From Candidatus Spongiisociaceae bacterium (GTDB taxonomy: Bacteria > Actinomycetota > Acidimicrobiia > Spongiisociales > Spongiisociaceae), in NCBI GenBank assembly GCA_965219685.1, contig CBDCOH010000002.1, forward strand, positions 1,920,001 through 1,984,000: a stretch of 64,000 nucleotides of DNA. Reading direction: 5' to 3'. How positions within the stretch are numbered: position 1 is the first letter of the stretch; each line of letters starts with the position of its first letter. Under the pieces are notes generated by a model that ran no database searches, was not told the DNA's origin, and saw only the letters and a list, made by a program, of their open reading frames with translations. This document shows, piece by piece, positions 452 through 19,084 of this stretch. The position numbers were made by a program, and so were the translations under genes.

Positions 452-483
452 AGGGTCGCGGGCGCCGGGGCGGAGCCGGGGCG

Positions 484-1245
484 TCACAGTCCCCGGCCGC
501 CGTCCACGGAGATCAGTTCACCGGTAACCATCCGGGCGTCCTCCGACGCGGCCCAAGCTGCGACGGCGGCCACCTCGTCCGGCTGGACGAGACGACCCAT
601 GGGTATCGCCTCGGCGATCGCCGCACGGCTCCCCGCCGTGTTCACGCCGCCCATGAACTCCACCAGCATCGGCGTGTCCGACGCCGCAGGGCATAGAGCT
701 ACGACGCGGATGTTGCGCGGAGCCAACTCGAGGGCCAGGCTCCGGGTGAGGGTTGCCACCGCCCCCTTGCTGGCTGCGTAGGCCGCGTATCCCGGGCGGG
801 GCCGGATCGAGATGTTCGACGCGATGTTCACTATGACCGCCGCGTGCGACCGCGCCAGGTAAGGCAGCGCTGCCCTGGTCATCAGGAAGACCCCACGGAC
901 GTTGACAGCGAAGATGTGATCGAACTCGGCGTCGCCGGTCTCTTCGATGGGCTTGGGGCGCTGACCTACCCCGGCGCAGTTCACCAGCACATCGAGTCCG
1001 CCGAGACTATGCACCGCCGCCTCCACAGAACGCTCCGAATCGGCCGCGACGGCCAGATCGGCTCGGATCGGGACGGCATCGGATCCGGTGGCGTGTATCT
1101 CCTCGGCCACGGCAGTAATCCCCTCACCGTTCCGATCAACGAGAGCCACCGAGGCGCCTTCCAGGGCGTAACGCCGGCTGATAGCCGCGCCGATCCCAGA
1201 AGCCGCGCCGGTCACGACCACCCTTCTACCCTGCAGCAGAGCCAC
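484..1245 (-). CDS. SDR family NAD(P)-dependent oxidoreductase
   Basis: TGAASGIG Rossmann motif, NCAG, catalytic YAASK, C-terminal VDGG. Confidence 0.92.
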   Translation of the reverse strand: MALLQGRRVVVTGAASGIGAAISRRYALEGASVALVDRNGEGITAVAEEIHATGSDAVPIRADLAVAADSERSVEAAVHSLGGLDVLVNCAGVGQRPKPIEETGDAEFDHIFAVNVRGVFLMTRAALPYLARSHAAVIVNIASNISIRPRPGYAAYAASKGAVATLTRSLALELAPRNIRVVALCPAASDTPMLVEFMGGVNTAGSRAAIAEAIPMGRLVQPDEVAAVAAWAASEDARMVTGELISVDGGRGL

Positions 1246-1326
1246 CCGAGTCCTCCCGTTTCTTCCCGTGGACGCGCAACCTACCAGCTACGATTCACAT
1301 CGCGAGCAAGAGAAGGAGAGCGTCCC

Positions 1327-1989
1327 ATGGGCGAGCAAGTATCGAGCCGGGCTCAGTGGTTCTGGGATAACACAACCGAAGTATGGGAGGCGATCATGGA
1401 GCATCCCTTCCTCGTCGAGCTCGAAGCAGGAACGCTTCCGGACGAGGTTCTCCGCTTCTACTTCGAGCAGAATCTCCAATACGTCGACGCGGTCTACCGG
1501 TGCCGGCTGGTTGCGGCGGCCAAGGCCCCCGACAAGGAGACGTTCGACCTTCTCACCCGCGATTGGAATCTCGAGCCCAGCGACGAGCGGCAGGGAGACC
1601 TGCTCGTGAGTTTCGGAGGCGACCCTGACAACCTGCCGCCCATGGCGCCGGCTTGCAGGGGGTACACGTATCACATGTGGTACAACGCCCTCGACGGGCG
1701 CACGATCGACTGGCTGGCCAGCTTCGTCGCCTGTCCCTGGACGTACGACCTCATAGGCGAGCAGGTATCGGGGAACATCGGCGAGGAGCGCCGGGAGTCC
1801 TGGATGGAGTACTACGGCAGCAAGATCCACCACGACCTGATGGACGACTTCCGCGCCGCCGTTGATCGGCTGACCGTCGGCCTTGAGCAGGATGACCTCG
1901 ATGGGCTCCTCGAGAAGTGGCGCCTCGGCATGCGCTACGAGTGGATGTTCTGGGACGATGCCTATCACATGCGGGGTTGGCCGGTCTAA
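1327..1989 (+). CDS. tenA: TenA/thiaminase II family protein (Cys-type), paralogue 1
   Basis: HPFL..L.AGTL, FYFEQN..Y, ACPWTY (active-site Cys), YEWMFWD. ATG at 1327 after GAAGGAGAG; the ORF-track start at 844 overlaps the SDR. Confidence 0.82.
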   Translation: MGEQVSSRAQWFWDNTTEVWEAIMEHPFLVELEAGTLPDEVLRFYFEQNLQYVDAVYRCRLVAAAKAPDKETFDLLTRDWNLEPSDERQGDLLVSFGGDPDNLPPMAPACRGYTYHMWYNALDGRTIDWLASFVACPWTYDLIGEQVSGNIGEERRESWMEYYGSKIHHDLMDDFRAAVDRLTVGLEQDDLDGLLEKWRLGMRYEWMFWDDAYHMRGWPV

Positions 1990-2120
1990 TCCATCTAGTG
2001 GCGCTCTCGCGTGACGCGCCTGAGAGCCGATGGGTATGATCCAACAACACGGAAGGTTTCGGCGACCCTGTTCGAACGGCTGAGGCCTGAGCTTCGAATC
2101 GCCCCTAAGAGGGAGGCACA

Positions 2121-3989
2121 ATGACGCGCAAGCGGTTCTATTACCCATTCATACTGATGGTGGTTCTTGCAATCGGGGCTGCCGCGTGCGGTGACGACGA
2201 GCCGGCGACCACGGCCGCACCCGCCACCACGGCCGCACCCACCACCACGGCCGCACCCACCACCACAGCGGCGGATACGACCGCTGAGACCGGCGACACA
2301 GAAACCCCGACGACGGCAGAGGCTACGACCACTACACCACCTACCACCCAGCCGCCTCAGATCGACGAGGGTGATGTGATGCGGGCTCCGGACCGCGTGC
2401 AGGACGCCGAGACGGTGGTGATCGCCTGGACCGGGTACCCCAACAGTCTGGATCCACCCGATAGCCTCCTCAACTTCAACCGCGAGGCTGGCGTCGGCCT
2501 TTACGACCGGCTCCTCACCTACTCGCTCACCGAGCGCGAGGACGGCACGTACGTATGGGACGGCCTCGGCGTGGCACCGGGCCTCGCCGAGAGCTGGGAG
2601 ATCGACGGAGGATCGGTGACGTTCACGATCCGCCAAGGCGTGACGTTCAACAAGACCGGTAACCCCCTGACTGCCCACGACATCTGGTACTCGTTCGTGC
2701 GAGCGATCGAGGTTCCGGGCTTCGGAACGTTCAACTCCAACCTGGCCGGTATCTTCGAGCCTTCTCGCCAGATCACTGTCATAGATGACTACACCATCCG
2801 TTTCGACTACGAGTTGGCCGACGGGACTCCGTTCCTTCTCAAGGCTTCGTTGCCGAGCATGAGGTTCCCGATCTTCGGGATCGTGGACTCGGTCGAGTTA
2901 CAGGCCCGCGCCACGGACGAGGATCCCTGGGGTCACGAGTGGGTCAAGGAGAACCCGGAGGGGTCGGGCCCGTACGTGATCGAGTCGGCGACACCCGGCA
3001 CCGAAATGATCCTGCGCCGTGTCCCAGGCCATTGGACCGAAGGGGACCAGAACCAACTCGGCGAGGCCTACAACGGTTTCGACCGGGTGATCTACCGGAC
3101 GCTCAGCAGCCCGGCGGACATCACGGCACTCATGCTCGGGGGGGAGGTGGACGTGGCCTTCGCTCTGGGTACCAGGGAGCTCAATGCCCTCGGTGAAGCT
3201 GGCTTCACCATCGTCAACGCCGAGATCCCCGATATCTGGCGCATCGACCTCCCGCTGACCACACCGCCGTTCGACAACCTGGCAGTGCGCCAAGCGATCG
3301 CACACGCGGTGCCCTACGACACGATCGTGGAGAACGCGTTCACCAACGCGACCCGCTCCTATTCGATCGTCAATCCGGCATCGCCCTCGTTCGTTCCGGC
3401 GTGGGACTACGACACCGACCTTGACAAGGCCCGCGAGTTGCTGGCGGAGGCCGGTTACCCGGACGGGTTCTCCACCGAGATGTTCTACACCCAAGAGCGG
3501 CAGGAGTGGGAGGACATCGCCCTGTTCCTCCAGGCCAGCCTCTCGCAGGTGGGGATCGACGTCGCTCTCCGGCCACTACCGGCGACTGAGTACCAGGAGC
3601 AGACAACGGCTCGGTACGACGACGACACGTTGATGCCCGGCATCCAGTTGCGCAGCGGGTTGATCTGGCTGGACGACGCCGATCCGAATGTCGGTCTTTG
3701 GCTGGTAACGCGTGGGTTCCCGGGGCCGGTCGGTGTGGGCGGATTCTCGAACGCCAGCCACTACTCGAATATCGAAGTCGACAAGTTGCACTTCGAGAAC
3801 CGGTTCAACCCGGACTTCGAAGCGCGGACCGAGGCCTACCGTGAAGCCCAGAGGATCGCGGCTCGCGACCTCCCGATGATCATGCTTGCCGTGCGCGGAT
3901 TCCCCGGCGCAGTGCATCCGGAGATCACCGGTGTGGCGTTCACTGCCGACCCGCATCTGCGCCAGTACCTGTTGAGGCCGGCTGGGTGA
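2121..3989 (+). CDS. ABC transporter substrate-binding lipoprotein, family 5 (Dpp/Opp-like)
   Basis: RBS GGAGG, lipobox AAAC, Thr/Ala/Pro linker, PGLAESWE, GSGPY, VRQAIAHA; heads an ABC operon. Confidence 0.92.
   Translation: MTRKRFYYPFILMVVLAIGAAACGDDEPATTAAPATTAAPTTTAAPTTTAADTTAETGDTETPTTAEATTTTPPTTQPPQIDEGDVMRAPDRVQDAETVVIAWTGYPNSLDPPDSLLNFNREAGVGLYDRLLTYSLTEREDGTYVWDGLGVAPGLAESWEIDGGSVTFTIRQGVTFNKTGNPLTAHDIWYSFVRAIEVPGFGTFNSNLAGIFEPSRQITVIDDYTIRFDYELADGTPFLLKASLPSMRFPIFGIVDSVELQARATDEDPWGHEWVKENPEGSGPYVIESATPGTEMILRRVPGHWTEGDQNQLGEAYNGFDRVIYRTLSSPADITALMLGGEVDVAFALGTRELNALGEAGFTIVNAEIPDIWRIDLPLTTPPFDNLAVRQAIAHAVPYDTIVENAFTNATRSYSIVNPASPSFVPAWDYDTDLDKARELLAEAGYPDGFSTEMFYTQERQEWEDIALFLQASLSQVGIDVALRPLPATEYQEQTTARYDDDTLMPGIQLRSGLIWLDDADPNVGLWLVTRGFPGPVGVGGFSNASHYSNIEVDKLHFENRFNPDFEARTEAYREAQRIAARDLPMIMLAVRGFPGAVHPEITGVAFTADPHLRQYLLRPAG
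2208..2270 (+). repeat. Intragenic 18-bp tandem repeat encoding a TTAAP(A/T) linker
   Basis: ACCACGGCCGCACCC(G/A)CC x3 plus a partial fourth unit. Confidence 0.9.
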
Positions 3990-4009
3990 TCCGAGCGGCT
4001 CTCCGGTCA

Positions 4010-4048
4010 TGTGACCGCGGCGCGTTGACCCATCACGCCGCGGTCACA
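4010..4048 (+). terminator. Intercistronic hairpin after the SBP gene (stabiliser or partial terminator)
   Basis: TGTGACCGCGGCG ... CGCCGCGGTCACA, 13-bp perfect inverted repeat, no U-tract. Confidence 0.6.
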
Positions 4049-4093
4049 ACCTTCAGGCTCTGGCCGGGCGATCCGTTGTAGGACTGATCGGGG

Positions 4094-5110
4094 ATGGACT
4101 CCGGGCTCTCCCGCCAACTGTTCACCCGGCTCCTGCTGGTAGCGCCGGTAGTCTTCGGCGTCGTGACCCTCACCTTCCTGGTGGCGAGGGTGTTCGCGCC
4201 CGATCCGGTAGCGCTGTACATTCCGCCGCAGGCAGACGAGGAACTCCGTCACAAGATCAGAGTCGAGTTGGGCTTGGACAAGTCGATCCCTGAGCAGTAC
4301 GGGGTCTTCCTGGCCGACCTGGCCCAAGGCGACCTAGGTGAATCGACCATCACCGGCCGGCCCGTCACGAGCGACCTGTGGGACCGGCTCCCCGCGACCG
4401 TGGAGCTTGCCCTGGTGTCCCTCACCTTTGCCATCGTGATCGGAGTCCCTTTGGGCGTGCTGGCAGGGGCGAGGCGCGACGGTCCTTTGGACTTCTCGGT
4501 GCGCGGCATCACCCTCATCGGGATGGCGCTTCCGTCGTTCTGGCTCGGTCTGGTGCTCATCCTGATCTTCTTCGTCATCCTCGGCTGGCTGCCCGGGCCT
4601 GTAGGCCGGCTGCCCCTCGGTGCGGAAGCGCCCGAGAAGATCACCGGGCTGTATACGCTCGACAGCCTCTTTCGGGGGGACTTGACGCTCTGGTGGGAGT
4701 CGGTACGCCATCTCATACTCCCCGGCTTGACGCTTGGCGTGGTCATCGTGGCCCCCATCACAAGGGTGGCTCGCGCCTCGATGGTGGATGTGATGCGCTC
4801 CGAGTACATCCGTACGCCCAAGGCGTTGGGCATCCGCAAGCAGGTCATCTACTTCCGTTACGCCCTGAAGAACGCCCTGCTTCCGATCGTCACCATGATC
4901 GGAACGATCGTAGGTTTCGTCTTCACCGGCGCCGTGCTGGTGGAAGCGGTCTTCAACTGGCCCGGAATGGGCAAGTATGGGCTCGATGCCATCCTCAAGT
5001 CGGACTTCACCGCCCTCCAGGGCTTCGTCGTGGTGGCATCGGTCACTTACATCGTGGCGTTCTTCCTGGTCGACATCGTTTACATGCTGATCGACCCGAG
5101 GACGAGATGA
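4094..5110 (+). CDS. Dpp/Opp ABC permease (DppB-like)
   Basis: GLDKS..QY, GDLG.S, RLPATVEL, EAA-like loop YIRTPKALG, VFNWPGMG. Confidence 0.93.
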   Translation: MDSGLSRQLFTRLLLVAPVVFGVVTLTFLVARVFAPDPVALYIPPQADEELRHKIRVELGLDKSIPEQYGVFLADLAQGDLGESTITGRPVTSDLWDRLPATVELALVSLTFAIVIGVPLGVLAGARRDGPLDFSVRGITLIGMALPSFWLGLVLILIFFVILGWLPGPVGRLPLGAEAPEKITGLYTLDSLFRGDLTLWWESVRHLILPGLTLGVVIVAPITRVARASMVDVMRSEYIRTPKALGIRKQVIYFRYALKNALLPIVTMIGTIVGFVFTGAVLVEAVFNWPGMGKYGLDAILKSDFTALQGFVVVASVTYIVAFFLVDIVYMLIDPRTR

Positions 5111-5120
5111 GGAGGAAGTC

Positions 5121-6026
5121 GTGATCGATATGACAGCCGACCGAGCTCCGGAAGGCGGCTCGCTCGACGTCATCGCTCCGGGACGCACCAGGTGGGGGAA
5201 GATCAGGTACGTGTTCGGCCAGAGCAAGAGCCTGACGGCCGGAACCATCCTTGTGGGAATCTTCATCCTGATTGCGCTTTTCGCCAAGTTCATCACCACC
5301 CACGATCCCAGCGCGGTACTGGTGGGGCCGCCGCTCACGGGGGTCAGCGCCGAGCACTGGTTCGGAACCGACAAGGTGGGCTCGGACGTGTTCTCCAAGA
5401 CGATCGCGGCCACCGCTCTCGATCTGCGGATCACCGCTTCGGCGGTGCTGGCGGCTCTCGTGGCCGGGGTCGTGCTCGGCACGGTCGCCGGCTATTACGC
5501 AGGGGTGGTGGACCTCATCCTGCTCCGGCTCCTGGAAATCCTCCAGTCCATTCCCACGCTGCTGCTGGCGATGATGGTGGTGGTGGCCATCGGGCCCGGG
5601 GAACTCAACGTGGTGGTGGTGATGGCTTTCATCGGGATGCCGTACTACGCGCGCCTCGTGCGCGCCGAGATCCTCACCAAGCGCACGTGGGAGTTCGCCG
5701 AGGCCGCCCGTATGGTCGGCGGATCGGCGATCCGGGTCGCCTTCCGGCATCTGCTGCCCAACAGCCTCTCGCCCGTACTCGCGTACGCCTCGGTCAATGC
5801 AGCGTGGGTGGTTCTGGTGACCGCCGCCCTGGGCTTCCTGGGTATCGGCATCGAACCGGGCACCGCCGAGTGGGGCTCGATGATCGCTCGCGGCCAGACG
5901 GAGATCATCACCGGCGAGTGGTGGGTCTCGGTGTTTCCCGGGCTGTTCGTCCTCATCCTCACCACCGGGTTCTACCTGCTCGGCGACGGCGTCCGGGACG
6001 TGATGGACCCGAGGTCCCGCAAGTGA
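5121..6026 (+). CDS. Dpp/Opp ABC permease (DppC-like)
   Basis: HWFGTD..G.D, FAEAARMVG, HLLPN, LGFLG, EWGSMI, LGDGVRD. Confidence 0.93.
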   Translation: MIDMTADRAPEGGSLDVIAPGRTRWGKIRYVFGQSKSLTAGTILVGIFILIALFAKFITTHDPSAVLVGPPLTGVSAEHWFGTDKVGSDVFSKTIAATALDLRITASAVLAALVAGVVLGTVAGYYAGVVDLILLRLLEILQSIPTLLLAMMVVVAIGPGELNVVVVMAFIGMPYYARLVRAEILTKRTWEFAEAARMVGGSAIRVAFRHLLPNSLSPVLAYASVNAAWVVLVTAALGFLGIGIEPGTAEWGSMIARGQTEIITGEWWVSVFPGLFVLILTTGFYLLGDGVRDVMDPRSRK

Positions 6027-6042
6027 GAGGTCGAGAGCGCTG

Positions 6043-7071
6043 ATGGCCGCCAACCTCGTGGAGATACAGAACCTCGAAGGCTTCTTCGAGACCATCGGCG
6101 GCGACGTCCGCGCCCTGAACGGAGTCAACGTGGCGATCGAGGAGGGAAAGGTCACTGGTCTGGTGGGCGAGACCGGCTCGGGGAAGACCATGACCGCCCT
6201 CAACGTCCCCCGCCTGATGCCGGAGAACTTCCGCTACGTGTCCGGCCGGGTCATGTTCCGGGGCGAGGACGTCCTCACCTGGCCGGAGGAGAGGATGGAA
6301 CTCTTCCGCGGTGACGGCGTGGGTATCGCCTTCCAGGATCCCAAGGCCGCCCTCAACCCGGTGTTCACGGTCGGTGAGCAACTCGGCCGGGCGCTGCGAA
6401 CCCACACGGAGGCCACCAAGACCGAGGCCAGGCGGGCGGCGCTCGGGATCCTGGCACGGGTCAGGATCGCGGACCCGGGGCGCACCATCCGCCAGTACGC
6501 CCATGAACTGAGCGGCGGCATGGCGCAGCGGGTCATGGTCGCGCTGGCCGTCATCCACCCCCCCAAGCTCCTGATCCTGGACGAGCCGACCACCGGCCTC
6601 GACGTGACCGTGCAGGCCGAGATCATCTCCATGCTGAGAGACCTGGTGGAGGATATGGGCCTCACGGTGCTGCTCATCACCCACGACCTCGGGGTGGTGG
6701 GCGAGCTGAGTGACAACGTTGCGGTCATGTACGCCGGCCGGACGATGGAGTTCGGTGACATCAGCCAGATCTTCGAGCGACCCGCCAACCCCTACACGAG
6801 GGAACTCCTGCGGTCGACGGAGAGCGTCGAGGGCGGAGTGGGCGACCTGTACAGCATCCCCGGCGCTCCTCCCGACCTCCGGAACCTGCCTGACGGGTGC
6901 TTCTTCCAGGATCGGTGCCCGTCGGCGGAGGACATCTGCCGGACCGTTCCTCCGGTGGTCGAGGTCGAGCCGGGCCATATATCGATGTGCCACTTCGCCG
7001 AGCGCTACCACGCCATGCCGGGGCCGCTCCACATCACGCAGGACGGCACGGGTACCGGAGGTCACGGGTGA
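6043..7071 (+). CDS. Dpp/Opp ABC ATP-binding protein (DppD-like)
   Basis: GETGSGKT Walker A, LSGGM, DEPTT, Cys-containing oligopeptide C-terminal domain. Confidence 0.95.
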   Translation: MAANLVEIQNLEGFFETIGGDVRALNGVNVAIEEGKVTGLVGETGSGKTMTALNVPRLMPENFRYVSGRVMFRGEDVLTWPEERMELFRGDGVGIAFQDPKAALNPVFTVGEQLGRALRTHTEATKTEARRAALGILARVRIADPGRTIRQYAHELSGGMAQRVMVALAVIHPPKLLILDEPTTGLDVTVQAEIISMLRDLVEDMGLTVLLITHDLGVVGELSDNVAVMYAGRTMEFGDISQIFERPANPYTRELLRSTESVEGGVGDLYSIPGAPPDLRNLPDGCFFQDRCPSAEDICRTVPPVVEVEPGHISMCHFAERYHAMPGPLHITQDGTGTGGHG

Positions 7072-7898
7072 CACCCGACCCCGGCGACTCCCTCTTGGCG
7101 GTGCGTGGTCTCACCAAGCACTTCCACCGGGGCGTCTGGCCGCGCCGCCAGACGATCGTCGCCGTCGACAACATCGACCTCCACGTGGCAAGGGGCGAGA
7201 GCGTCGGGCTCGTCGGCGAGAGCGGATCCGGCAAGACGACCACGGCTCGCACGATCCTGCGGCTCGTCGACCCGACGGCCGGTGAGATCAGCTTCGATGG
7301 AATACGCGTCGACCAGACCCCCCGCGCCAAGGTTCGCCGCCTCTACAGGAACATGCAGATGGTGTTCCAGGACCCGAACTCCTCCCTCAACCCGCGGATG
7401 ACAGTGCGGGAGATCGTCACCGAGCCCCTGAAGCTCCACCTCGAGATGTCGAACCATGAGCAGGAGGAGCGAGCGAACGAGATCATGACCATGGTGGGCA
7501 TGCGGGGATTCCACCTAGATCGTTATCCCGGCCAGTTGAGCGGAGGCCAGCGCCAACGGGTAGGAGTCGGTCGGGCCATAGCCACGCATCCCAAGCTGGT
7601 CTTTCTCGATGAACCTACCTCCTCGCTGGACGTGTCGGTCCGGGGCCAGGTGATGCAACTTCTCGTCGACCTGCAGCGGAAGCTGAACATGTCCTACGTG
7701 CTCATCAGCCACGACCTGGGCGTGGTACGGCAGCTCAGCCGGCGCGTACTGGTGATGTTCGAGGGCAAGATCGTCGAGGAAGGCCCCACCCGGCAGGTGT
7801 TCGAGAACCCCAGGGACGACTACACCAAGAGACTGCTGGCGGCCATCCCCTCCATGGACGGCTACCGCCGCCGGAGACGGCAAGGAGGGGCCCGATGA
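7068..7898 (+). CDS. Dpp/Opp ABC ATP-binding protein (DppF-like)
   Basis: GESGSGKT, LSGGQRQR, DEPT; GTG start overlapping the upstream stop (GTGA). Confidence 0.93.
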   Translation: MTPDPGDSLLAVRGLTKHFHRGVWPRRQTIVAVDNIDLHVARGESVGLVGESGSGKTTTARTILRLVDPTAGEISFDGIRVDQTPRAKVRRLYRNMQMVFQDPNSSLNPRMTVREIVTEPLKLHLEMSNHEQEERANEIMTMVGMRGFHLDRYPGQLSGGQRQRVGVGRAIATHPKLVFLDEPTSSLDVSVRGQVMQLLVDLQRKLNMSYVLISHDLGVVRQLSRRVLVMFEGKIVEEGPTRQVFENPRDDYTKRLLAAIPSMDGYRRRRRQGGAR

Positions 7899-8860
7899 GC
7901 CGTGTCGTGGACGCCCACATCCACATCTTCCGGGACCCCTCCTGGAGCCCCGAGTCCCAGAAGGCGATGCCGATCTCCTGGGTGAACCAGGTCCGGTGGT
8001 TCGACATGGACCCCGAGGACGCCGAGCGCCGCTACCGGGAGTCGGTGGACGCCTGCTGGGATCCCGACGGATCCAAGACCATCGCCCGGATGGACGAGGC
8101 GGGCGTGGATGTCTCGGTGACCATGCCGATGGACAGGGGGCTCCTCACGGGCGACGAGGGCGTGGTGCCCTACGAGGAGAAGAACGAGGGCTACTACGAG
8201 CTCACAAGGATGTGGCCGGGACGTATCTACTCCTTCTGCGGGGTCGATCCGCGCCGGCCCCAGGCCGCCAAGTTCCTCGAGAAGGCGATCGCCGACTGGG
8301 GGTTCCTTGGACTGAAGCTCTACCCCACCGCCGGCTTCTACCCGGACGACGAGATCGTCCACCCGCTCTACGAGGTGTGCCGTGAGTACGACGTCCCGGT
8401 CCTGCTGCACCAGGGCCACTCGGGGGGTCGCCTCAAGAGCAAGTACGGCCACCCCATGTACGTGGACTCGGCGGCCGCGGACTTCCCCGAGGTGAGGTTC
8501 ATCCTTGGTCATGGAGCCAGGTTCGAGACGTGGGCGAAGGAGGCCATGAGCGTGGCCATCTACAAGACGAACGTCCACCTCGAGATCAGCCTCTGGCAGC
8601 ACTGGGCCAGCGTCGACGACCTGGTGAGGACCTTCGTCTGGATCCGTGATCGCATCGGCATCGACCGGTTGCTGTTCGGGAGCGACATGACCAACGTCGA
8701 GGTGTCCATGAGCCTCAAGGAGTGGGCAGACGTGATCCGGATGCTGCCCGAGTGGGCCAAGCAACTCGGGTTCCGCCTCAGCCGCGAAGAGATCGCCCTG
8801 GTTCTCGGAGGCAACGCGGAACGCGTGTACCGGATCCCGCCCGTTGAGCAAGACGCTTAG
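7895..8860 (+). CDS. Amidohydrolase family protein (amidohydro_2 type TIM barrel)
   Basis: DAHIH, GLKLYP, LLHQGH, ILGH, LLFGSD; ATGA coupling to the upstream gene. Confidence 0.88.
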   Translation: MSRVVDAHIHIFRDPSWSPESQKAMPISWVNQVRWFDMDPEDAERRYRESVDACWDPDGSKTIARMDEAGVDVSVTMPMDRGLLTGDEGVVPYEEKNEGYYELTRMWPGRIYSFCGVDPRRPQAAKFLEKAIADWGFLGLKLYPTAGFYPDDEIVHPLYEVCREYDVPVLLHQGHSGGRLKSKYGHPMYVDSAAADFPEVRFILGHGARFETWAKEAMSVAIYKTNVHLEISLWQHWASVDDLVRTFVWIRDRIGIDRLLFGSDMTNVEVSMSLKEWADVIRMLPEWAKQLGFRLSREEIALVLGGNAERVYRIPPVEQDA

Positions 8861-8897
8861 TGCGCATGCGATCATTCGAAGCGATCAAGGAGACCCG

Positions 8898-9545
8898 ATG
8901 AGTTGGACGCAGCACATGTACGAGCAGGCCAAGGACATGTGGGAGCGGATCTACGAACACCCCTTCCTGCAAGATCTCGCGGCCGGAACCCTGTCCGACG
9001 AGCGCTTGGCCTTCTACTTCGAACAGAACACCCACTACATCAACAACGTGGTCAAGTGCCGGTCCATCGCCACTGCCAAGGCCCACAACAACGAGATACG
9101 GGACTTCTTCCTGAGCCGCACCGCGATGGTGGTGGACGAGATGCACCACCAGGAGGACATGCTGCGGCGGGTCGGCGGCCAGCCCGGTGCCCGCATCGCC
9201 CCCACCTGCCATGCCTACACCCGCCACATCCTCAACCTGGTGTGGACCAAGGACCCGGTCGAGTATCTCGGGTCGTTCATGCCGTGCCCGTGGACCTACG
9301 ACGAGATCGGCATCCAACTCCGCAGCGCCGACCTTCAGGGCGCCTCCGCCGAGTGGTGGGAGTTCTACATGAGCGAGGAGCACAACGAACTGGTGGCGAA
9401 CTACCGGGTGTTCGTGGACAAGTACTCCGAGGGACTGTCGGACGAGCGGCGTCAGCAGATGCTGGACAACTTCATCATCAGCACCAACTACGAGTACCGG
9501 TTCTGGGACATGGCCTACAACCGGGAACAATGGCCCCTCGGCTAG
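8898..9545 (+). CDS. tenA: TenA/thiaminase II family protein (Cys-type), paralogue 2
   Basis: HPFLQDLAAGTL, FYFEQNTHY, MPCPWTY, YEYRFWDMAY; RBS AAGGAG. Confidence 0.85.
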   Translation: MSWTQHMYEQAKDMWERIYEHPFLQDLAAGTLSDERLAFYFEQNTHYINNVVKCRSIATAKAHNNEIRDFFLSRTAMVVDEMHHQEDMLRRVGGQPGARIAPTCHAYTRHILNLVWTKDPVEYLGSFMPCPWTYDEIGIQLRSADLQGASAEWWEFYMSEEHNELVANYRVFVDKYSEGLSDERRQQMLDNFIISTNYEYRFWDMAYNREQWPLG

Positions 9546-9558
9546 ATGGGCTGAGCCC

Positions 9559-11118
9559 GTGAGCCGCCTGCTCGTCGTCGGGGACCCGGTCGTAGCGCTG
9601 GCCGGCGGCCGCAGCGACATCCTCGACGACGGGGCACTGATCGTCGAGGGCCGGAAGGTCACCGCGCTGGGCCGCCGCGAGGATCTCGAGAAGCGGGGCC
9701 CGTTCGACCGGGTGGTCGGCTCGCGCAGGCACCTCGTGATGCCGGGCTTCATCAACGGGCACTTCCACTCGATGGGGGCGGGCTCCCCCGGCCTCTTCCA
9801 GTACGTCTTCGAGCGGATGAACACCCGCATCTTCCGCCGCGCCATGAGCGACGACGACATCAGGACCATCATCCTCGTGGCGCTGATGCGGGCTGTCAGA
9901 GGCGGGCAGACGGGCGCGGTGGACTTCAACTACGGCAACCCCACGTTGGTCGACTTCGGCAACCCGCCCATCCTGGACGCCTACCGAACCATCGGGATGC
10001 GGGTGGCCCTCGGCATGGTCACCCGGGACGAGAACATCTACATCCATGCCCCCGACGACGTGTTCCTCTCGTCGTTGCCGGCGGAACTGGCCCGCCAGGT
10101 CCGGGAATCGACGATGGGGTATGCCTGGCCCACCGACGACGTGGTCGCCTCATACCGCCGGGTCCACGCCGAATGGGACGGCTACGACGGGCGCCTCCGG
10201 GTGATCCTCGCCCCGGACTGGACACCGGCCTGCTCCGACGACCTCTACCTGCTGAACAGGCGCCTGGCCGACGAGTACGACACCGGCATCACCACCCACC
10301 TCCTCGAGACCCGCTCCGAGATGCTGTTCAACCTCGAGACCTACGGCAAGACCGCGATGCGGCGGCTGGCCGACATCGGTGTGCTTGGACCCGACGTCAG
10401 TTGCGCCCACTTCGTCTGGGCCACCGACGAGGACATCCGCATCCTGGCCGACACCGGCGCGGTGGCGGTCAACAACCCGGGCTCCAACCTGCGTCTGAGC
10501 ACGGGAATCGCCCGGGCCCGCGACATCCTCGACTCGGGAGCCGCGCTGGCGTTCGGAACCGACTCGATCTCCTTCTCGGACATCGAGGACTTCTTCCAGG
10601 AACTTCGCCTCGCCATGTACCTTCAGCGAATCCCCGCCGAGTTGGAGATCGGGCGCTTGGACTCGCTCGAGGTGCTGCGCCGGGCTGCCTCCTCCGGCGC
10701 CCGGGCCATCCGCCAGGAGGCGAAGCTGGGATCCCTCGCCGAGGGTAAGGAGGCGGATCTGCTCGTCCTCAGCAAGGAACGGTTGCTATGGCCGGAACCC
10801 AAATACGCTTCGGTCCCGATCCTCGACGTTCTGCTGGACAGGGCCACAGGTTCCGACCTGGAGACGGTGCTGATTGCAGGACGGATCGTCCTCGACGAAG
10901 GCCGTTTCACCACCGTCGACGAGCAGCAGGTCCTGGCGGACTTCGCCGAGGCCGGCAGGGAACGGCTTTGGGTGTCGTCCGCGCAGGGTCGCCGAGAGGC
11001 GCAATTGGCCGCCCATGTTGAGCCGTACGTCCTCGACTTCTACCGCGAGTGGGCGTTGAGGCCGCTGACCCCTGCGTACACCTACAACGCGCTAGTACCC
11101 CCGCAGGAGGTGAGGTAG
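9559..11118 (+). CDS. Metal-dependent amidohydrolase/deaminase (SsnA/AtzA/MTA-SAH deaminase-like)
   Basis: MPGFINGHFH, THLLET, AHFVW, NPGSNLRL, FGTD, GSLAEGKEADL. Confidence 0.9.
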   Translation: MSRLLVVGDPVVALAGGRSDILDDGALIVEGRKVTALGRREDLEKRGPFDRVVGSRRHLVMPGFINGHFHSMGAGSPGLFQYVFERMNTRIFRRAMSDDDIRTIILVALMRAVRGGQTGAVDFNYGNPTLVDFGNPPILDAYRTIGMRVALGMVTRDENIYIHAPDDVFLSSLPAELARQVRESTMGYAWPTDDVVASYRRVHAEWDGYDGRLRVILAPDWTPACSDDLYLLNRRLADEYDTGITTHLLETRSEMLFNLETYGKTAMRRLADIGVLGPDVSCAHFVWATDEDIRILADTGAVAVNNPGSNLRLSTGIARARDILDSGAALAFGTDSISFSDIEDFFQELRLAMYLQRIPAELEIGRLDSLEVLRRAASSGARAIRQEAKLGSLAEGKEADLLVLSKERLLWPEPKYASVPILDVLLDRATGSDLETVLIAGRIVLDEGRFTTVDEQQVLADFAEAGRERLWVSSAQGRREAQLAAHVEPYVLDFYREWALRPLTPAYTYNALVPPQEVR

Positions 11119-11120
11119 AG

Positions 11121-11918
11121 ATGCCGTTCACGATCTCACCGTTGGTCATGGCCTATGGACCGCAGCGGGAGAAGTCCCGCTTCACCTTCCTCCACAACTT
11201 CGGGGAGAAGATCGACCTTCCGTACGTCTCCTGGCTCATCCAGGACGCGGAGCGAGGTCTCAACGTGCTGGTCGATGTCGGATGCAGCGCGGAGGAATAC
11301 GCCAACCACATCAAGCCCCCGGACGACACCAAGCTGCGGCACGCAGGCGAGGAATTCGCCGACGTGATCAACATCCGTCCCCTGGACGAGCTACTGGCCG
11401 ACAGGGGACTTGAGACCGATGACATCGACTTCATCGTCCTGACCCACCTCGACTGGGACCACTGCATGAACCTTCCGCTGTTTCCCGATACCAGGGTAAT
11501 CGTCCAGCAGAAGGAGTGGGACGCTCTCCCACCCCATCCGTTCATCGCGTCGGGATTCGCTCCGGACCACCGCTACGAGGAAATGGCCTTGAGAGGGATG
11601 GAACTGACCGAGGGCGATCAGGAACTGGTGCCGGGACTGGACGTGCTGTTCACCCCCGGACACACGCCGGGAGGCCAGTCGATCGCGGTGGAGACGCCGA
11701 AGGGCAGGTACGTCATCGCCGGGCTCTGCACCATCTGGGAGAACTACTTCCCCGACCCCGAGATCCTCAAGACCGCCAAGTACGAAGTGATTCCCCCGGG
11801 AGGTCACACCGACCTGTTCGATGCCTACAACAGCGTGGTACGGATACGTGACGAGGCAGGCACCCAGCTTCTCCCCGCGCACCATCTGGAGGCGTTCGAC
11901 ATGGAGCCCATCGGTTGA
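11121..11918 (+). CDS. MBL-fold hydrolase (N-acyl homoserine lactonase family)
   Basis: VLVDVG, THLDWDH (HxDxDH variant), TPGHTPG, C-terminal PAH. Confidence 0.85.
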   Translation: MPFTISPLVMAYGPQREKSRFTFLHNFGEKIDLPYVSWLIQDAERGLNVLVDVGCSAEEYANHIKPPDDTKLRHAGEEFADVINIRPLDELLADRGLETDDIDFIVLTHLDWDHCMNLPLFPDTRVIVQQKEWDALPPHPFIASGFAPDHRYEEMALRGMELTEGDQELVPGLDVLFTPGHTPGGQSIAVETPKGRYVIAGLCTIWENYFPDPEILKTAKYEVIPPGGHTDLFDAYNSVVRIRDEAGTQLLPAHHLEAFDMEPIG

Positions 11919-12295
11919 ACGCTCCAGATCGGGAGACCGGGAACCAGGTCGTAGTGGCGGCAATGGTCGGCGCCCTCAATGAGGCCGACATCGAGCGGTT
12001 CGTCTCCTACTACACGGACGACGTGGAGGTGGACATTGTCCGCTTCGGACGGCGCCTGAAGGGTGCCCGAGCGGTAGGCGCGTGGATCGAGGACGCCTTC
12101 GACGCCCTCGACGGTTTCTGCAACGATGTCGTCGGCATCTACGGGGATGGCGAAGTCATCGCCCTCGAGGTGATCGCCCGCGGGACGGCTAGGCGGCCGT
12201 TCGCCGGGAGGTCGGTCGGAGAGCCCCTGGATGCTCAGGAGGTTTACATCTACACCTTCCGGGAGGGCAAGATCGCCGACGTCCGCGCCTATTAG
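11915..12295 (+). CDS. SnoaL/NTF2-like protein
   Basis: 126 aa, YYTDDV, G..AV..W, FREGKI..VRAY; overlaps the upstream stop. Confidence 0.78.
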   Translation: MNAPDRETGNQVVVAAMVGALNEADIERFVSYYTDDVEVDIVRFGRRLKGARAVGAWIEDAFDALDGFCNDVVGIYGDGEVIALEVIARGTARRPFAGRSVGEPLDAQEVYIYTFREGKIADVRAY

Positions 12296-12587
12296 CGGTC
12301 TGTCTGCGAACTGATTGCCTGCGTCCCGCATGCCGTCGAGACCGCTCGCTGCGTTCCGTCTCCTCAACGCAACCCGTCTGCCCGGAGTTCCAGCGCATTC
12401 CCGAGAAAGATAACAATATCATTCTCCAATAAACACGAATCTGGCCCTTTCTCGCGAAAGATGGTCTTATCTTGAAGTGTTGCCCGGACCTATCGGACAT
12501 GCCCGGGGAAGCACGAGACCAAGGCCAGGCAGAGATCGGTCGTTTGCGTCCACCTACGATCACGGTAGAAAGCAGCAGGAGGCGTGG

Positions 12588-13172
12588 ATGAGTCTAGGCG
12601 AGCCTGTCCCATCGGATGTCCGTACGCGGCTGATCGAGTTGCGGGCCGAGGTCGTCGGCCACCGTGACCGTGAACCTCATGATGGGTACAGCCGGATCGC
12701 GACCGAACAGGCCATCGAAGGCGGCCTGGAGGGTAACGCGGCGATCGGAGCCCTGATCGTCGACCCGGACGGTGAGGTGATACTGATCGAGCGGAACCGG
12801 ATGTTCGTTCCCCGGTTCCGGAGCGACTTCCACGCCGAGATGGTCCTCCTCACCCGCTACGAGAATCAGCACGGCAACCGGGGCGACCTCAGGGGCCACA
12901 CCCTGGTCACGTCGCTGGAACCGTGCGAGATGTGCATGATCCGCATCATCAACTCGGGTGTGACGAACACATTGTACGTGGCATCCGACCTGGGTAAGGG
13001 GGGCATCACCGGTCCCAACACTCTGGCGCCACACTGGGCACGCCTGGCCGAGCCCCAGAACTTCGCGGCCGCGGACTGCTCTCCCCGGATAGCGGAACTC
13101 GCCCTCGAGGCCTTCCAAGTCACGATCGGCGGGATCGTGGAGAAGATGATGGCCCGCCGACTCCCCAGCTGA
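12588..13172 (+). CDS. Zn-dependent nucleoside/nucleobase deaminase (cytidine deaminase/TadA-like fold)
   Basis: GNAAIGALIV, HAE, SLEPCEMC; RBS AGGAGG before ATG 12588. Confidence 0.85.
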   Translation: MSLGEPVPSDVRTRLIELRAEVVGHRDREPHDGYSRIATEQAIEGGLEGNAAIGALIVDPDGEVILIERNRMFVPRFRSDFHAEMVLLTRYENQHGNRGDLRGHTLVTSLEPCEMCMIRIINSGVTNTLYVASDLGKGGITGPNTLAPHWARLAEPQNFAAADCSPRIAELALEAFQVTIGGIVEKMMARRLPS

Positions 13173-13443
13173 CGACAAGGCGAGCCGCGGCGGGCCCCCG
13201 GCAGCCAGACGATTAGTTGCTAGTCGGTAGTTGTATAGCGTTGTGTACCAATAGTACAGCGCAGTCGCTTCCGGTCAACCTCTTGGAAATACTCACCTAG
13301 ATTCAGTCTGTTCTAGCCAGAGAGCTTCCACGGCTCGAAGTCTTGATCCTCGGCTCCGGGCTCCAAACGGCACAAAGGCCGCAACCGACGTGGTGACCGG
13401 CATCGAATGCCATCGCTCCGCACACAGCCACCCCGACGCGCTG

Positions 13444-14184
13444 TTACTGGATTCCCACCATCTTGTCATCCGTGAGGTGCCGGACCGCATCGTCCATGTG
13501 AGCCGTGATCGCTCTTGACACCTCATCGCGATCGCCCGCGCGCAAAGCACTGAGGATTCTTCGATGCTCTTCCACCAGATGAGTGCCTTCGGTGTAGGCG
13601 CCTTCCAAACGGCGGAGACAGATGGCGGTCTCGACGAGCAACGTAGCGAACATTCTCGTCAACCTGGGACTACTGGCGGCCTCGACTAGCTTCTCATGGA
13701 AGAAGCGATCCGCCTCCAGGGTCGACCTGAGATCCGATACAGCAGCAGCCTCCTCGAGAGAACTCAGAGCAGACTCGAGGACTTCCCAGTCGACATCATC
13801 GGGTGCCCGGACTATGGCCTCGGCTGCAGCCGTCTCGCACGCGGTACGGGCCAGGTACACGTCCAAGACGTCTTCGCTCGTCAGTTCCCTGATGAAGACG
13901 CCTCGCCTCTTGTTCACTGCGAGGCCCTCCTGGATCAGGCGTTGCAGTGCCTCGCGTACGGGCGCGCGGCTCACACCCAGTTGTTCGGCCAGACGGGTCT
14001 CCACCATCCGGGTGCCCGGAGAGAGGGTTCCATCGAGCATCGCCTCCCTGATCCTGCGGGCGATGAGCAGCGCGGTCGGCGCGCGGGCAATGGGCTCCAA
14101 CTGGTCCAGACCTGTAGCCCGCCCACGACCGATCGCTGATCGACCTGTTGAACGTGTCACTGTCTCGGTCCGGCCCGTCATCAC
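13444..14184 (-). CDS. GntR family transcriptional regulator (FCD domain)
   Basis: LAEQLGVSRAPVREAL HTH, DRFFH, EHRRIL, HM; divergent from the dehydrogenase; exact start uncertain. Confidence 0.92.
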   Translation of the reverse strand: MMTGRTETVTRSTGRSAIGRGRATGLDQLEPIARAPTALLIARRIREAMLDGTLSPGTRMVETRLAEQLGVSRAPVREALQRLIQEGLAVNKRRGVFIRELTSEDVLDVYLARTACETAAAEAIVRAPDDVDWEVLESALSSLEEAAAVSDLRSTLEADRFFHEKLVEAASSPRLTRMFATLLVETAICLRRLEGAYTEGTHLVEEHRRILSALRAGDRDEVSRAITAHMDDAVRHLTDDKMVGIQ

Positions 14185-14230
14185 CCAACACCTCGAGTAT
14201 CCCGCTCCGCGGAACTCTAGCCACTGCTCC

Positions 14231-14257
14231 GCCTATCGTCGATTGTCGACGATAGGC
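14231..14257. promoter_or_regulatory. Candidate GntR operator palindrome
   Basis: GCCTATCGTCGA-TTG-TCGACGATAGGC in the divergent gntR/dehydrogenase intergenic region. Confidence 0.7.
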
Positions 14258-14298
14258 GATTCTCCTATGATCACGAGAAACCTCTTAGTGAGTGACCC

Positions 14299-15339: not shown

Positions 15340-15388
15340 TATCAGGATGTGTTCAGATGCGCGCCGGACCCTCCTGTCCGTCAACTCC

Positions 15389-16657: not shown

Positions 16658-16669
16658 GTCCTACTCCTA

Positions 16670-19046: not shown

Positions 19047-19084
19047 GATCACCGATCGGACAAGGAAACTAGGAGGCCGCCATC

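What the first reader, a model, noticed from the sequence alone, without database searches (positions are those of the whole stretch)
1327..13172. Twin TenA paralogues with Asp-to-Asn change clustered with deaminases: candidate new pathway for modified or oxo-pyrimidines
Seen: a co-directional cluster with two TenA proteins, a Dpp-type importer, amidohydro_2, an SsnA-like deaminase, an MBL hydrolase, a SnoaL protein and a cytidine-deaminase-fold enzyme, plus a divergent SDR. No thi biosynthesis genes or recognisable TPP riboswitch are in the window. Both TenAs keep the catalytic Cys (CPWTY) and Glu (YE..FWD) but read EQN..Y where canonical TenA has QD..Y. Known: in Bacillus subtilis TenA this Asp contacts the aminopyrimidine ring. 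Inference: Asn would better fit a 4-oxo ring (oxythiamine-type or 5-aminomethyl-uracil-type compounds), pointing to catabolism or detoxification rather than thiamine salvage, possibly as a heteromer.
Basis: partly seen in the sequence, partly recalled or inferred. Interest (0 to 1): 0.75.

Follow-up and report, generated by a model that had tools for sequence, protein, structure and literature searches.

The report
Variant TenA enzymes in pyrimidine-breakdown operon
A sponge-associated actinobacterium that cannot make vitamin B1 carries four altered copies of the B1-recycling enzyme TenA beside importers and deaminases, which points to an undescribed route for breaking down pyrimidine-type compounds rather than to vitamin salvage.

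Summary
Two TenA-family genes (1327-1989 and 8898-9545, 38% identical) lie in one co-directional cluster. The cluster also holds a Dpp-type ABC importer, an Amidohydro_2 protein, a cog0402-type deaminase, a lactonase-like MBL, a SnoaL protein and, more loosely, a CDA-fold deaminase.

In alignments to solved B. subtilis TenA, both proteins have Asn where TenA has Asp44. Cys135, Glu205, Tyr47, Tyr112, Tyr163 and Phe208 are kept.

- **More copies:** two further Asn-type TenA genes lie 10-18 kb upstream, each beside paralogous deaminase and Amidohydro_2 genes.
- **A clade feature:** Asn44 marks a clade (40 of 43 rows) and comes with a second change, His86 to Gln/Asn, in 54 of 56 Asn rows.
- **No salvage sink:** this genome and five other carriers show no ThiC or ThiE. 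This genome also shows no ThiN or TPP riboswitch.
- **Below the family cut-off:** both proteins score below NCBI's salvage_TenA cut-off.
- **Control:** neighbours of canonical Asp-type TenA genes include ThiD, ThiM, Thi4 and ThiN genes. Neighbours of Asn-type genes, where scanned, do not.

Best reading (0.6): an import-and-breakdown operon for pyrimidine-type bases. The heteromer idea got no answer. An earlier report of this scan found the related upstream island on other DNA.

The parts
484..1245 (-). Short-chain dehydrogenase, divergent from the operon
   Evidence: Pfam adh_short_C2 2.4e-59. Kept upstream of TenA1 in 9 of 11 related Acidimicrobiia loci.
1327..1989 (+). TenA1: TenA_C-type protein with Asn at the Asp44 position and Gln at the His86 position
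   Evidence: PF03070 hit. PDB alignment to 1to9/1tyh, E 1.8e-14. TIGR04306 79 bits against a cut-off of 130. Site table QNYYCWYYEF.
2121..3989 (+). Family-5 substrate-binding lipoprotein of a Dpp/Opp-type ABC importer, with a long Thr/Ala/Pro-rich linker
   Evidence: SBP_bac_5 3.1e-64. Sequence. PDB relatives are generic peptide, opine or haem binders, so no ligand is assigned.
4094..5110 (+). ABC permease (DppB-like)
   Evidence: BPD_transp_1 1.3e-39.
5121..6026 (+). ABC permease (DppC-like)
   Evidence: BPD_transp_1 4.3e-28, OppC_N.
6043..7071 (+). ABC ATPase (DppD-like)
   Evidence: ABC_tran plus oligo_HPY.
7068..7898 (+). Second ABC ATPase (DppF-like)
   Evidence: ABC_tran 6.7e-35 in ORF 6897-7898. 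In-frame GTG at 7068 behind GGAGG.
7895..8860 (+). Amidohydro_2 metal hydrolase or decarboxylase; function not assignable
   Evidence: PF04909 1.8e-34. HxH at residues 8-10. Best PDB hits are 3irs, LigW and LigJ. 61% identical to a paralogue upstream.
8898..9545 (+). TenA2: TenA_C-type protein with Asn44 and Gln at the His86 position
   Evidence: PDB alignment to 1tyh, E 4e-25. TIGR04306 125 bits against a cut-off of 130. 62% identical to TenA3 upstream.
9559..11118 (+). Amidohydro_1 deaminase of the cog0402 type (TRZ/ATZ, SsnA-like)
   Evidence: PF01979 2.7e-38. HFH at residue 68 and HLLE at residue 247. Best PDB hits: 4f0r MTA/SAH deaminase 1.7e-33, 8-oxoguanine deaminase, atrazine chlorohydrolase.
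11121..11918 (+). Lactonase-like metallo-beta-lactamase-fold hydrolase with motif HLDWDH
   Evidence: Lactamase_B 3.7e-17. PDB AiiA 3.9e-16 and 4-pyridoxolactonase 2.9e-10. Start. Lies near TenA2-type genes in all four distinct contexts examined.
11915..12295 (+). SnoaL-like small protein
   Evidence: SnoaL_2 5.9e-13.
12588..13172 (+). CDA-fold zinc deaminase (HAE...PCEMC); loosely linked to the cluster
   Evidence: dCMP_cyt_deam_1 4.9e-13. PDB TadA and yeast cytosine deaminase. Motifs. Found in 2 of 10 related loci.
13444..14184 (-). GntR/FCD regulator, candidate regulator of the cluster
   Evidence: FCD 4.7e-21, GntR 3.5e-15. A GntR/FCD gene also lies beside the twin TenA genes of L019.

Best explanation
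The cluster is an import-and-breakdown (nitrogen-scavenging or catabolic) operon for a pyrimidine-type base that carries a substituted methyl group. It is not a thiamine-salvage unit.

Proposed course:
1. The Dpp-type ABC system takes the compound up.
2. The cog0402 deaminase (and, where present, the CDA-fold deaminase) turns a ring amino group into an oxo group.
3. The two TenA proteins work as canonical TenA does: the conserved cysteine adds to ring C6, the group on the C5-methylene leaves as an amine, and water takes its place.
4. The SDR, Amidohydro_2, lactonase-like MBL and SnoaL proteins process the hydroxymethyl product further.

The paired change Asp44 to Asn and His86 to Gln/Asn replaces a charged pair with two neutral amides next to the ring's 4-substituent. 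I read this as a specificity switch.

What is shown: the genes, the residues, the clade, the lack of a thiamine pathway, and the conserved linkage.

What is inferred: the chemistry of each step, the order of steps, and the substrate. Within this reading I put about 0.3 on deamination first with TenA acting on the oxo form.
For: 1. **Catalytic set kept, Asp44 replaced.**

2. **Four Asn-type TenA genes and no Asp-type one in the genome, all within 30 kb.** Each lies beside Amidohydro_1 and Amidohydro_2 paralogues: AH1 55%, AH2 61%, TenA2/TenA3 62% identity.

3. **A ThiY-like binding protein in the neighbouring module.** Its only PDB relatives are 4nmy and ThiY 3ix1, the formylaminopyrimidine binder. 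A more distant Asn-type gene sits beside an NCS1 nucleobase permease. Both point to pyrimidine-type substrates.

4. **No thiamine synthesis in the genome.** It is 96.7% complete in 2 contigs. No ThiC, ThiE, ThiN or TPP riboswitch was found, and ThiG gave only fragments. TPK is present. ThiE and ThiC were found in 0 of 5 further carrier genomes.

5. **Below the curated cut-off.** TIGR04306 scores are 79 and 125 against 130.

6. **Asn44 marks a clade.** TenA1-3 sit in a well-supported clade (SH-like support 100) of 43 rows: 40 Asn, 2 Asp, 1 Ser. Column 85 is Gln or Asn in 54 of 56 Asn rows, and His in 88 of 127 other rows.

7. **Control with canonical TenA.** Among 140 neighbour ORFs of 43 Asp-type metagenome loci, the tally was Phos_pyr_kin 7, HK 4, Thi4 4, ThiN 4, ThiW 3. 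No such family turned up beside Asn-type genes where Pfam was run.

8. **Synteny.** The arrangement is kept in 9-10 of 11 related loci, including one at 70% identity.

9. **RNA-library contigs.** Contigs of a roughly 94%-identical relative cover TenA1 plus the binding-protein gene (one 2647-nt contig, 1324-3978) and part of TenA2. This is a weak hint of expression only, because DNA carry-over is not excluded.
Against: - No substrate is identified and no step has been tested.
- The importer is of the peptide/opine type, not a known pyrimidine carrier.
- The Amidohydro_2 protein has no detectable likeness to iso-orotate decarboxylase among solved structures at E 0.01.
- The deaminase is missing beside TenA2-type genes in two contexts, L016 and L019. 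There the neighbours are a CoA-transferase, a B12 mutase and a luciferase-like monooxygenase.
- Lack of ThiE is the rule in this class: it was found over the cut-off in only 25 of 201 sampled genomes. It is therefore background, not a trait tied to Asn-type TenA.
- Most synteny evidence comes from close kin.
- The Asn44/column-85 coupling rests on only 5 independent pairs, with a median sign-test p of 0.125.
- I could not verify that column 85 lies next to residue 44 in space.
Confidence: 0.6

Rival explanations
1. Breakdown of ordinary thiamine-derived 4-aminopyrimidines (AmMP, FAMP, HMP). TenA acts on the 4-amino form as usual and the deaminases act afterwards. Asn44 only tunes the enzyme and is not a specificity switch.
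For: - Every pocket residue except Asp44 is kept.
- The neighbouring module has a ThiY-like binding protein.
- An Asn carbonyl can still accept a hydrogen bond from an amino group (inference).
- An earlier report of this scan reached this reading on related DNA (a lead, not evidence).
Against: - The coupled loss of His86 in 54 of 56 Asn rows suggests a remodelled site rather than drift.
- By my own knowledge, such compounds are very dilute in seawater, which sits poorly with four paralogous modules.
- D44A strongly lowers activity in B. subtilis TenA (PMC5623701, passage).
Confidence: 0.25
2. Ordinary thiamine salvage: TenA makes HMP that is reused for thiamine synthesis.
For: - The family and the catalytic residues fit.
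- TenA2 is only 5 bits under the TIGR04306 cut-off.
- One Phos_pyr_kin (ThiD/PdxK-like) gene exists elsewhere in the genome.
Against: - No ThiE, ThiN, ThiC or TPP riboswitch in this genome.
- No ThiE or ThiC in 0 of 5 other carrier genomes.
- No thi genes beside any Asn-type TenA scanned, whereas they do appear beside Asp-type ones.
Confidence: 0.06
3. The substrate is another heterocycle with a leaving group on a ring methylene, such as a pyridine of the vitamin-B6 type or a pterin, rather than a pyrimidine.
For: - The MBL resembles lactonases, including 4-pyridoxolactonase.
- An SDR is present.
- cog0402 enzymes also deaminate pterins and purines (and my own knowledge).
Against: - The likeness to 4-pyridoxolactonase is weak: 46 bits against a cut-off of 325.
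- The TenA pocket residues that stack on and bind the pyrimidine are all kept.
- The transporters in sister contexts are ThiY-like and NCS1.
Confidence: 0.07
4. The TenA copies are non-enzymatic regulators, like the TenA-family activator LysR2.
For: A TenA-family protein acts as a transcriptional activator in a Streptomyces gene cluster (PMC12817078, abstract and passages). PDB 9wdg is a weak hit.
Against: - The full catalytic set, including Cys and Glu, is conserved across the clade.
- A GntR regulator is already present.
- 9wdg scores far below B. subtilis TenA: 1.6e-05 and 1.8e-12 against 1.8e-14 and 4e-25.
Confidence: 0.02

Closest known systems
Bacillus subtilis TenA, thiaminase II / aminopyrimidine aminohydrolase (TenA_C class; PDB 1YAF, 1TYH, 2QCX)
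   Same: Full-length homology. Cys135, Glu205, Tyr47, Tyr112, Tyr163 and Phe208 are kept, so the same cysteine-addition chemistry is expected.
   Different: Asp44 is Asn and His86 is Gln. Both proteins are under the TIGR04306 cut-off. The host has no thiamine synthesis. The neighbours are deaminases and hydrolases, not thi genes.
ThiXYZ-YlmB-TenA salvage of base-degraded thiamine in Bacillus (Jenkins et al. 2007; recalled, paper not held)
   Same: The logic of importer plus hydrolase plus TenA. The neighbouring module even has a ThiY-like binding protein.
   Different: The window's importer is Dpp-type. No M20 deformylase lies in the cluster. No ThiD/ThiE sink exists for the product. Ring deaminases have been added.
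cog0402 amidohydrolase deaminases (MTA/SAH deaminase 4F0R, 8-oxoguanine deaminase 7WW2, atrazine chlorohydrolase 4V1X)
   Same: The Amidohydro_1 protein has the HxH and HxxE motifs and E values down to 1.7e-33.
   Different: It is below every NCBIfam equivalog cut-off. No member of this group is known to me as a partner of TenA.
Asn204 of human uracil-DNA glycosylase and its N204D mutant
   Same: A single Asn/Asp exchange switches recognition between a 4-oxo and a 4-amino pyrimidine (PMC11289083, passages). This is the same logic as proposed here.
   Different: It is an unrelated fold and reaction, so it is an analogy only.
LysR2, TenA-family transcriptional activator (PDB 9WDG)
   Same: It belongs to the same Pfam family.
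   Different: It is a distant relative. The proteins here keep the enzyme residues.

Membership tests
TenA_C thiaminase II (EC 3.5.99.2; NCBIfam TIGR04306 salvage_TenA) | Homology to PF03070 and to solved TenA over the full length | tested here: met
   PF03070 hits. 1tyh E 4e-25 for TenA2 and 1to9 E 1.8e-14 for TenA1.
TenA_C thiaminase II (EC 3.5.99.2; NCBIfam TIGR04306 salvage_TenA) | Catalytic Cys135 and Glu205 | tested here: met
   CPWTY and YE..FW align with CYWLY and YEYQFW. In the family alignment, Cys is present in 185 of 189 rows and Glu in 184 of 189.
TenA_C thiaminase II (EC 3.5.99.2; NCBIfam TIGR04306 salvage_TenA) | Asp44, which binds the amino groups of the pyrimidine ligand | tested here: not met
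   Asn in all four paralogues. The role of Asp is taken from PMC5623701 passages.
TenA_C thiaminase II (EC 3.5.99.2; NCBIfam TIGR04306 salvage_TenA) | Score at or above the curated equivalog cut-off (130 bits) | tested here: not met
   TenA1 79 bits, TenA2 125 bits.
TenA_C thiaminase II (EC 3.5.99.2; NCBIfam TIGR04306 salvage_TenA) | Works within thiamine salvage (ThiD/ThiE present, thi neighbours or TPP riboswitch) | tested here: not met
   No ThiC, ThiE, ThiN or TPP riboswitch in the genome. No Rfam hit in the window or L007. No thi neighbours.
TenA_C thiaminase II (EC 3.5.99.2; NCBIfam TIGR04306 salvage_TenA) | Hydrolysis of 4-amino-5-aminomethyl-2-methylpyrimidine or thiamine | not testable with these tools
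   Needs an enzyme assay.
cog0402 amidohydrolase deaminases (for 9559-11118) | Amidohydro_1 fold with the HxH metal motif and the HxxE motif | tested here: met
   PF01979. HFH at residue 68 and HLLE at residue 247. PDB relatives. That HxxE marks deaminases of this group is recalled.
ThiXYZ-type pyrimidine importer | NMT1/THI5-fold binding protein related to ThiY | tested here: not met
   The window's binding protein is SBP_bac_5. A ThiY-like one belongs to the neighbouring module only.
Iso-orotate decarboxylase-type Amidohydro_2 (considered for 7895-8860) | Detectable likeness to solved IDCase | tested here: not met
   No IDCase among the 8 PDB hits at E 0.01. That IDCase belongs to Amidohydro_2 is recalled.

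The most novel reading that the evidence does not exclude
Asn44/Gln86 TenA proteins form an undescribed enzyme class. They would do TenA chemistry on 4-oxo (uracil- or oxythiamine-type) 5-(aminomethyl)pyrimidines, either made in the cell by the adjacent cog0402 deaminase or taken up as such. Examples of the latter would be bases from modified tRNA or phage DNA.

The twin copies would split the work between two different leaving groups. This would be the first dedicated breakdown route for such compounds, and it would give a one-residue rule (Asp versus Asn) for reading TenA specificity from sequence.
Probability: 0.25. Interest if true: 0.8.

Novelty: new variant of a known kind. Interest (0 to 1): 0.6.

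Why it matters
TenA genes are annotated almost everywhere as thiamine salvage or as 'transcriptional activator'. Every named member of the Asn-type clusters I looked up carries that label.

If the Asn44/Gln86 subfamily does something else, there would be three consequences:
- A share of TenA annotations would be wrong: 13 of the 140 aligned representatives nearest to this protein are Asn-type.
- Vitamin-B1 budgets inferred from metagenomes would be biased.
- A catabolic route for pyrimidine-type heterocycles in sponge symbionts would become testable with a few recombinant proteins.

I found no paper that describes the variant. The searches were made, over the open-access library only. Jenkins 2008, Toms 2005 and Zallot 2014 are not held, and supplements are closed, so a mention there cannot be excluded.

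Tried and rejected
- **Heteromer of TenA1 and TenA2.** One complex-prediction job gave no verdict: score 0.24 against a mark of 0.32. It is not evidence either way.
- **Promoter and terminator scan of 1-14500.** 3 promoter-like sites against 1.8 expected, and 3 terminator-like sites against 5.2 expected. Nothing usable.
- **Rfam.** No hit in the window or L007.
- **Ligand hints for the binding protein.** PDB and NCBIfam gave only generic family-5 relatives.
- **Function of the Amidohydro_2 protein.** Not assignable.
- **Original TenA structure and mutagenesis papers.** Not held. The role of Asp44 therefore rests on a secondary source, and I could not confirm that His86 touches Asp44.
- **Taxonomy of distant Asn-type proteins.** The cluster look-up gave no organism names.
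- **Class-wide search.** TenA2-like genes at E 1e-10 were found in only 3 of 401 sampled Acidimicrobiia genomes, counting this one, so it added few new contexts.
- **A wrong-frame query.** In one search my query for the second ATPase (7105-7898) was in the wrong frame. Its identity figures are meaningless, though the position matches. The correct gene is 7068-7898.
- **RNA-library coverage.** It is patchy and comes from contigs of a relative. Parts without cover mean nothing.
- **Greedy ORF picking on high-GC loci.** It chose some wrong-strand ORFs. I dropped the planned like-for-like Pfam tally for Asn-type loci and scanned chosen ORFs instead.

Full report
**What is there**

The first 14 kb of the window (G+C 0.62-0.68) hold a divergent SDR gene followed by a co-directional, tightly packed run of genes:
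- SDR 484-1245(-)
- TenA1 1327-1989
- family-5 binding lipoprotein 2121-3989
- two permeases 4094-5110 and 5121-6026
- two ATPases 6043-7071 and 7068-7898
- Amidohydro_2 7895-8860
- TenA2 8898-9545
- Amidohydro_1 9559-11118
- MBL 11121-11918
- SnoaL 11915-12295
- after a gap, a CDA-fold deaminase 12588-13172
- on the other strand, a GntR/FCD regulator 13444-14184

Gaps between genes from 5110 to 12295 are 37 bases or fewer, or the genes overlap. This fits one operon, which is an inference from spacing. No Rfam family reaches its threshold in the window or in the 20 kb upstream.

**The residue claim**

HMMER alignments to the solved B. subtilis TenA chains cover both proteins end to end. TenA1 gives E 1.8e-14 and TenA2 gives E 4e-25.
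- FYFEQN..Y lies on YYVLQD..Y, so Asn sits at Asp44.
- CPWTY lies on CYWLY (Cys135).
- YE..FW lies on YEYQFW (Glu205, Phe208).
- Tyr47, Tyr112 and Tyr163 are also kept.

The two proteins are 38% identical. A secondary source states that the equivalent Asp of the Pyrococcus enzyme bonds to the amino groups of bound HMP-P, and that D44A strongly lowers activity in the Bacillus enzyme (PMC5623701, passages). The primary papers are not held.

**The cluster is part of a bigger island**

A whole-genome search finds four TenA-family genes, all within 30 kb. The two upstream ones are L007:1878-2525(-) and L007:9928-10596(+). Both also read QN. The genome has no Asp-type TenA.

The upstream 20 kb carry, in order:
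- Amidohydro_2, DUF1989, TenA3, Amidohydro_1
- an ABC ATPase, a permease and an NMT1/THI5-type binding protein
- Amidohydro_2, Amidohydro_1, TenA4
- hydantoinase A and B, a luciferase-like monooxygenase, a zinc dehydrogenase and a molybdopterin dehydrogenase

The parts are paralogous to those in the window. The window's Amidohydro_1 is 55% identical to the one beside TenA4. Its Amidohydro_2 is 61% identical to one upstream. TenA2 is 62% identical to TenA3. So the trio of TenA, cog0402 deaminase and Amidohydro_2 recurs with different importers.

The upstream binding protein has only two relatives among solved structures, 4nmy and ThiY 3ix1. ThiY is the formylaminopyrimidine binder.

**Not thiamine salvage**

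The genome has 4.42 Mb in 2 contigs and is 96.7% complete.
- No ThiC, no ThiE, no ThiN and no TPP riboswitch were found. ThiG gave only short fragments.
- It does have thiamine pyrophosphokinase and one Phos_pyr_kin gene.
- The controls for each family were positive in 5 to 14 of 14 reference genomes.
- HMP made by TenA would therefore have no route into thiamine.
- Five other genomes with Asn-type TenA also show no ThiE and no ThiC, 0 of 5 each. They include the carriers of L017 (70% identity) and L019 (53%).

A caution against my reading: ThiE is rare in this class anyway, at 25 of 201 sampled genomes over the cut-off. Its absence is therefore background, not a trait linked to the variant.

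Both proteins fall below the curated salvage_TenA cut-off, with 79 and 125 bits against 130.

**Is Asn a family feature?**

- The word-based search gave 47 relatives.
- The exhaustive search gave 1605 at E 0.001, of which only 11 were at E 1e-30.
- In an alignment of 189 rows, the Asp44 column reads Asp 128, Asn 57, Ser 1, His 1 and gap 2.
- Among the 140 aligned representatives from the exhaustive search, the split is 125 Asp, 13 Asn, 1 Ser and 1 His.
- On a FastTree of 183 full-length rows, TenA1, TenA2 and TenA3 lie in a clade with SH-like support 100. It has 43 rows: 40 Asn, 2 Asp, 1 Ser.
- TenA4 lies in a separate small Asn group.
- The Asn state needs 8 changes on the tree, 5 of them forced by well-supported branches, against 48 for shuffled labels.
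- Bacillus and Nitrososphaerales hits are all Asp-type.

The column most different between the two groups after residue 44 is TenA2 position 85. By the multiple alignment this is His86 of the Bacillus enzyme.
- It is Gln or Asn in 54 of 56 Asn rows.
- It is His in 88 of 127 other rows.
- Both separate Asn groups show it, one with Gln and the other with Asn.

Only 5 phylogenetically independent pairs exist. About 3.6 of them go the same way and none goes the other way, with a median p of 0.125. The coupling is therefore suggestive, not proven.

The pairwise HMMER alignment puts the Bacillus His two residues earlier. The gap-free spacing in the multiple alignment favours column 85. I could not check the spatial contact.

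**Neighbourhood**

Among 11 related Acidimicrobiia loci (record titles point to sponge and other marine metagenomes):
- TenA1 is present in 9 of 11 (missing in L012 and L016).
- Amidohydro_2 lies next to TenA2 in 10 of 11.
- The deaminase is present in 9 of the 10 loci that reach far enough.
- The MBL is present in 10 of 10, and SnoaL in 9 of 10.
- The CDA gene is present in 2 of 10.

These loci are mostly close kin. The deeper cases are these:
- **L017 (70% identity):** keeps nearly the whole set.
- **L019 (53% identity):** has two Asn-type TenA genes in tandem behind a family-5 binding protein. With them are an MBL, an SDR, GntR/FCD, a CoA-transferase, a B12 mutase and a luciferase-like monooxygenase, but no deaminase.
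- **L016 (same genus, small genome):** keeps only TenA2 and the MBL, beside a similar CoA-transferase, mutase and monooxygenase set.

Of 80 metagenome loci, 5 are Asn-type and 75 are Asp-type. The 5 Asn-type loci are:
- a copy of the TenA3 module
- a tandem twin
- two contigs with monooxygenase, zinc dehydrogenase and TenA1 in a row
- one locus beside an NCS1 nucleobase permease

**Control with Asp-type loci**

I took 43 of the 75 Asp-type loci, dropping the 32 shortest. For each I took the two nearest ORFs on each side, 140 ORFs in all. The Pfam tally lists Phos_pyr_kin 7, HK 4, Thi4 4, ThiN 4, ThiW 3 and ECF transporter 3. Neither amidohydrolase family is among the 25 families shown.

No thi family appeared beside Asn-type genes wherever I ran Pfam. 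For L017, L041 and L069 I mostly relied on BLAST with the island's own proteins.

**The other enzymes**

- **Amidohydro_1:** has the HxH and HxxE motifs. Its best solved relatives are MTA/SAH deaminase, 8-oxoguanine deaminase and atrazine chlorohydrolase. I read it as a deaminase of an amino-substituted nitrogen heterocycle.
- **CDA-fold protein:** has HAE and PCEMC, and resembles TadA and yeast cytosine deaminase.
- **MBL:** resembles lactonases and has HLDWDH in place of HxHxDH.
- **Amidohydro_2:** is distant from everything solved.

**Mechanism and its limits**

I commit to an import-and-breakdown operon for a pyrimidine-type base, with confidence 0.6. The TenA step is inferred from the kept catalytic residues. 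The deamination step is inferred from family membership. The later steps are guesses.

- the recurring pairing with a ring deaminase;
- the neutral Asn/Gln pair;
- the known Asn204-to-Asp switch of human uracil-DNA glycosylase from uracil to cytosine (PMC11289083, passages).

No result here tests it, and two contexts lack the deaminase. I put it at 0.25-0.3.

**Expression hint**

Two metatranscriptome runs of one study hold contigs about 94% identical to the window. One 2647-nt contig spans 1324-3978, covering TenA1 and the binding-protein gene. Another covers 8979-9523, inside TenA2. DNA carry-over is not excluded, and both runs belong to one study, so this is weak.

**Prior notes of this scan**

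An earlier report on another genome described the homologue of the upstream island and read it as breakdown of vitamin-B1-type pyrimidines. Another report described twin TenA-like genes with a cytosine deaminase in Anaerolineae. Both are unchecked leads. The first agrees with my reading, and I checked its gene content on this genome only.

**Verdict**

This is a real, conserved variant of a known enzyme family in a non-salvage setting, with the substrate unknown. I rate it a new variant of a known kind, interest 0.6.

Noticed in passing
L007 (own genome C2:1900001-1920000), 1-20000: A dense hydrolase island lies just upstream of the window. It holds three Amidohydro_2 genes, two Amidohydro_1 genes, DUF1989, TenA3, TenA4, a ThiY-like ABC importer, hydantoinase A/B, a luciferase-like monooxygenase, a zinc dehydrogenase and a molybdopterin dehydrogenase.
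   Followed up: partly
L042-L118 (Asp-type TenA metagenome loci): Neighbours of canonical TenA genes often include pyridine-nucleotide-disulphide oxidoreductases (12 of 140 ORFs) and Redoxin/AhpC proteins (5 of 140). I do not know of this link.
   Followed up: no
L016:12090-15964 and L019:11854-17044: TenA2-type genes sit beside a family-III CoA-transferase, a methylmalonyl-CoA-mutase-like B12 enzyme and a luciferase-like monooxygenase in two otherwise different contexts. A database protein, P0049, carries a CoA-transferase domain and a 98% match to one fifth of TenA2.
   Followed up: partly
window 11121-11918: The MBL reads HLDWDH where lactonases such as AiiA have HxHxDH (the AiiA motif is recalled), so the second histidine is an aspartate.
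   Followed up: no
window 2121-3989: The binding lipoprotein has a roughly 60-residue Thr/Ala/Pro-rich linker after its lipobox. The linker gives a spurious New_glue Pfam hit.
   Followed up: no
Acidimicrobiia sample: ThiE was found over its cut-off in only 25 of 201 sampled genomes of the class, so thiamine auxotrophy seems the rule there.
   Followed up: no
window 1324: RNA-library contigs from two runs of one study both begin at 1324, three bases before the TenA1 start codon. This could be a transcript end, or simply where the relative's sequence diverges.
   Followed up: no
window 16792-24521 and L006:7431-19423: The surroundings are rich in other hydrolases and importers: a creatinase/M24-like protein, a second SDR, a further ABC system, a polysaccharide deacetylase, a sulfatase, an amidase and another Amidohydro_2. 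L006:9528-14537(-) is a 1669-residue ORF that I did not annotate.
   Followed up: no
L039:5546-6851: The ThiY-like binding-protein gene of this metagenome copy of the TenA3 module is split into two ORFs. This could be a frameshift or an assembly error.
   Followed up: no
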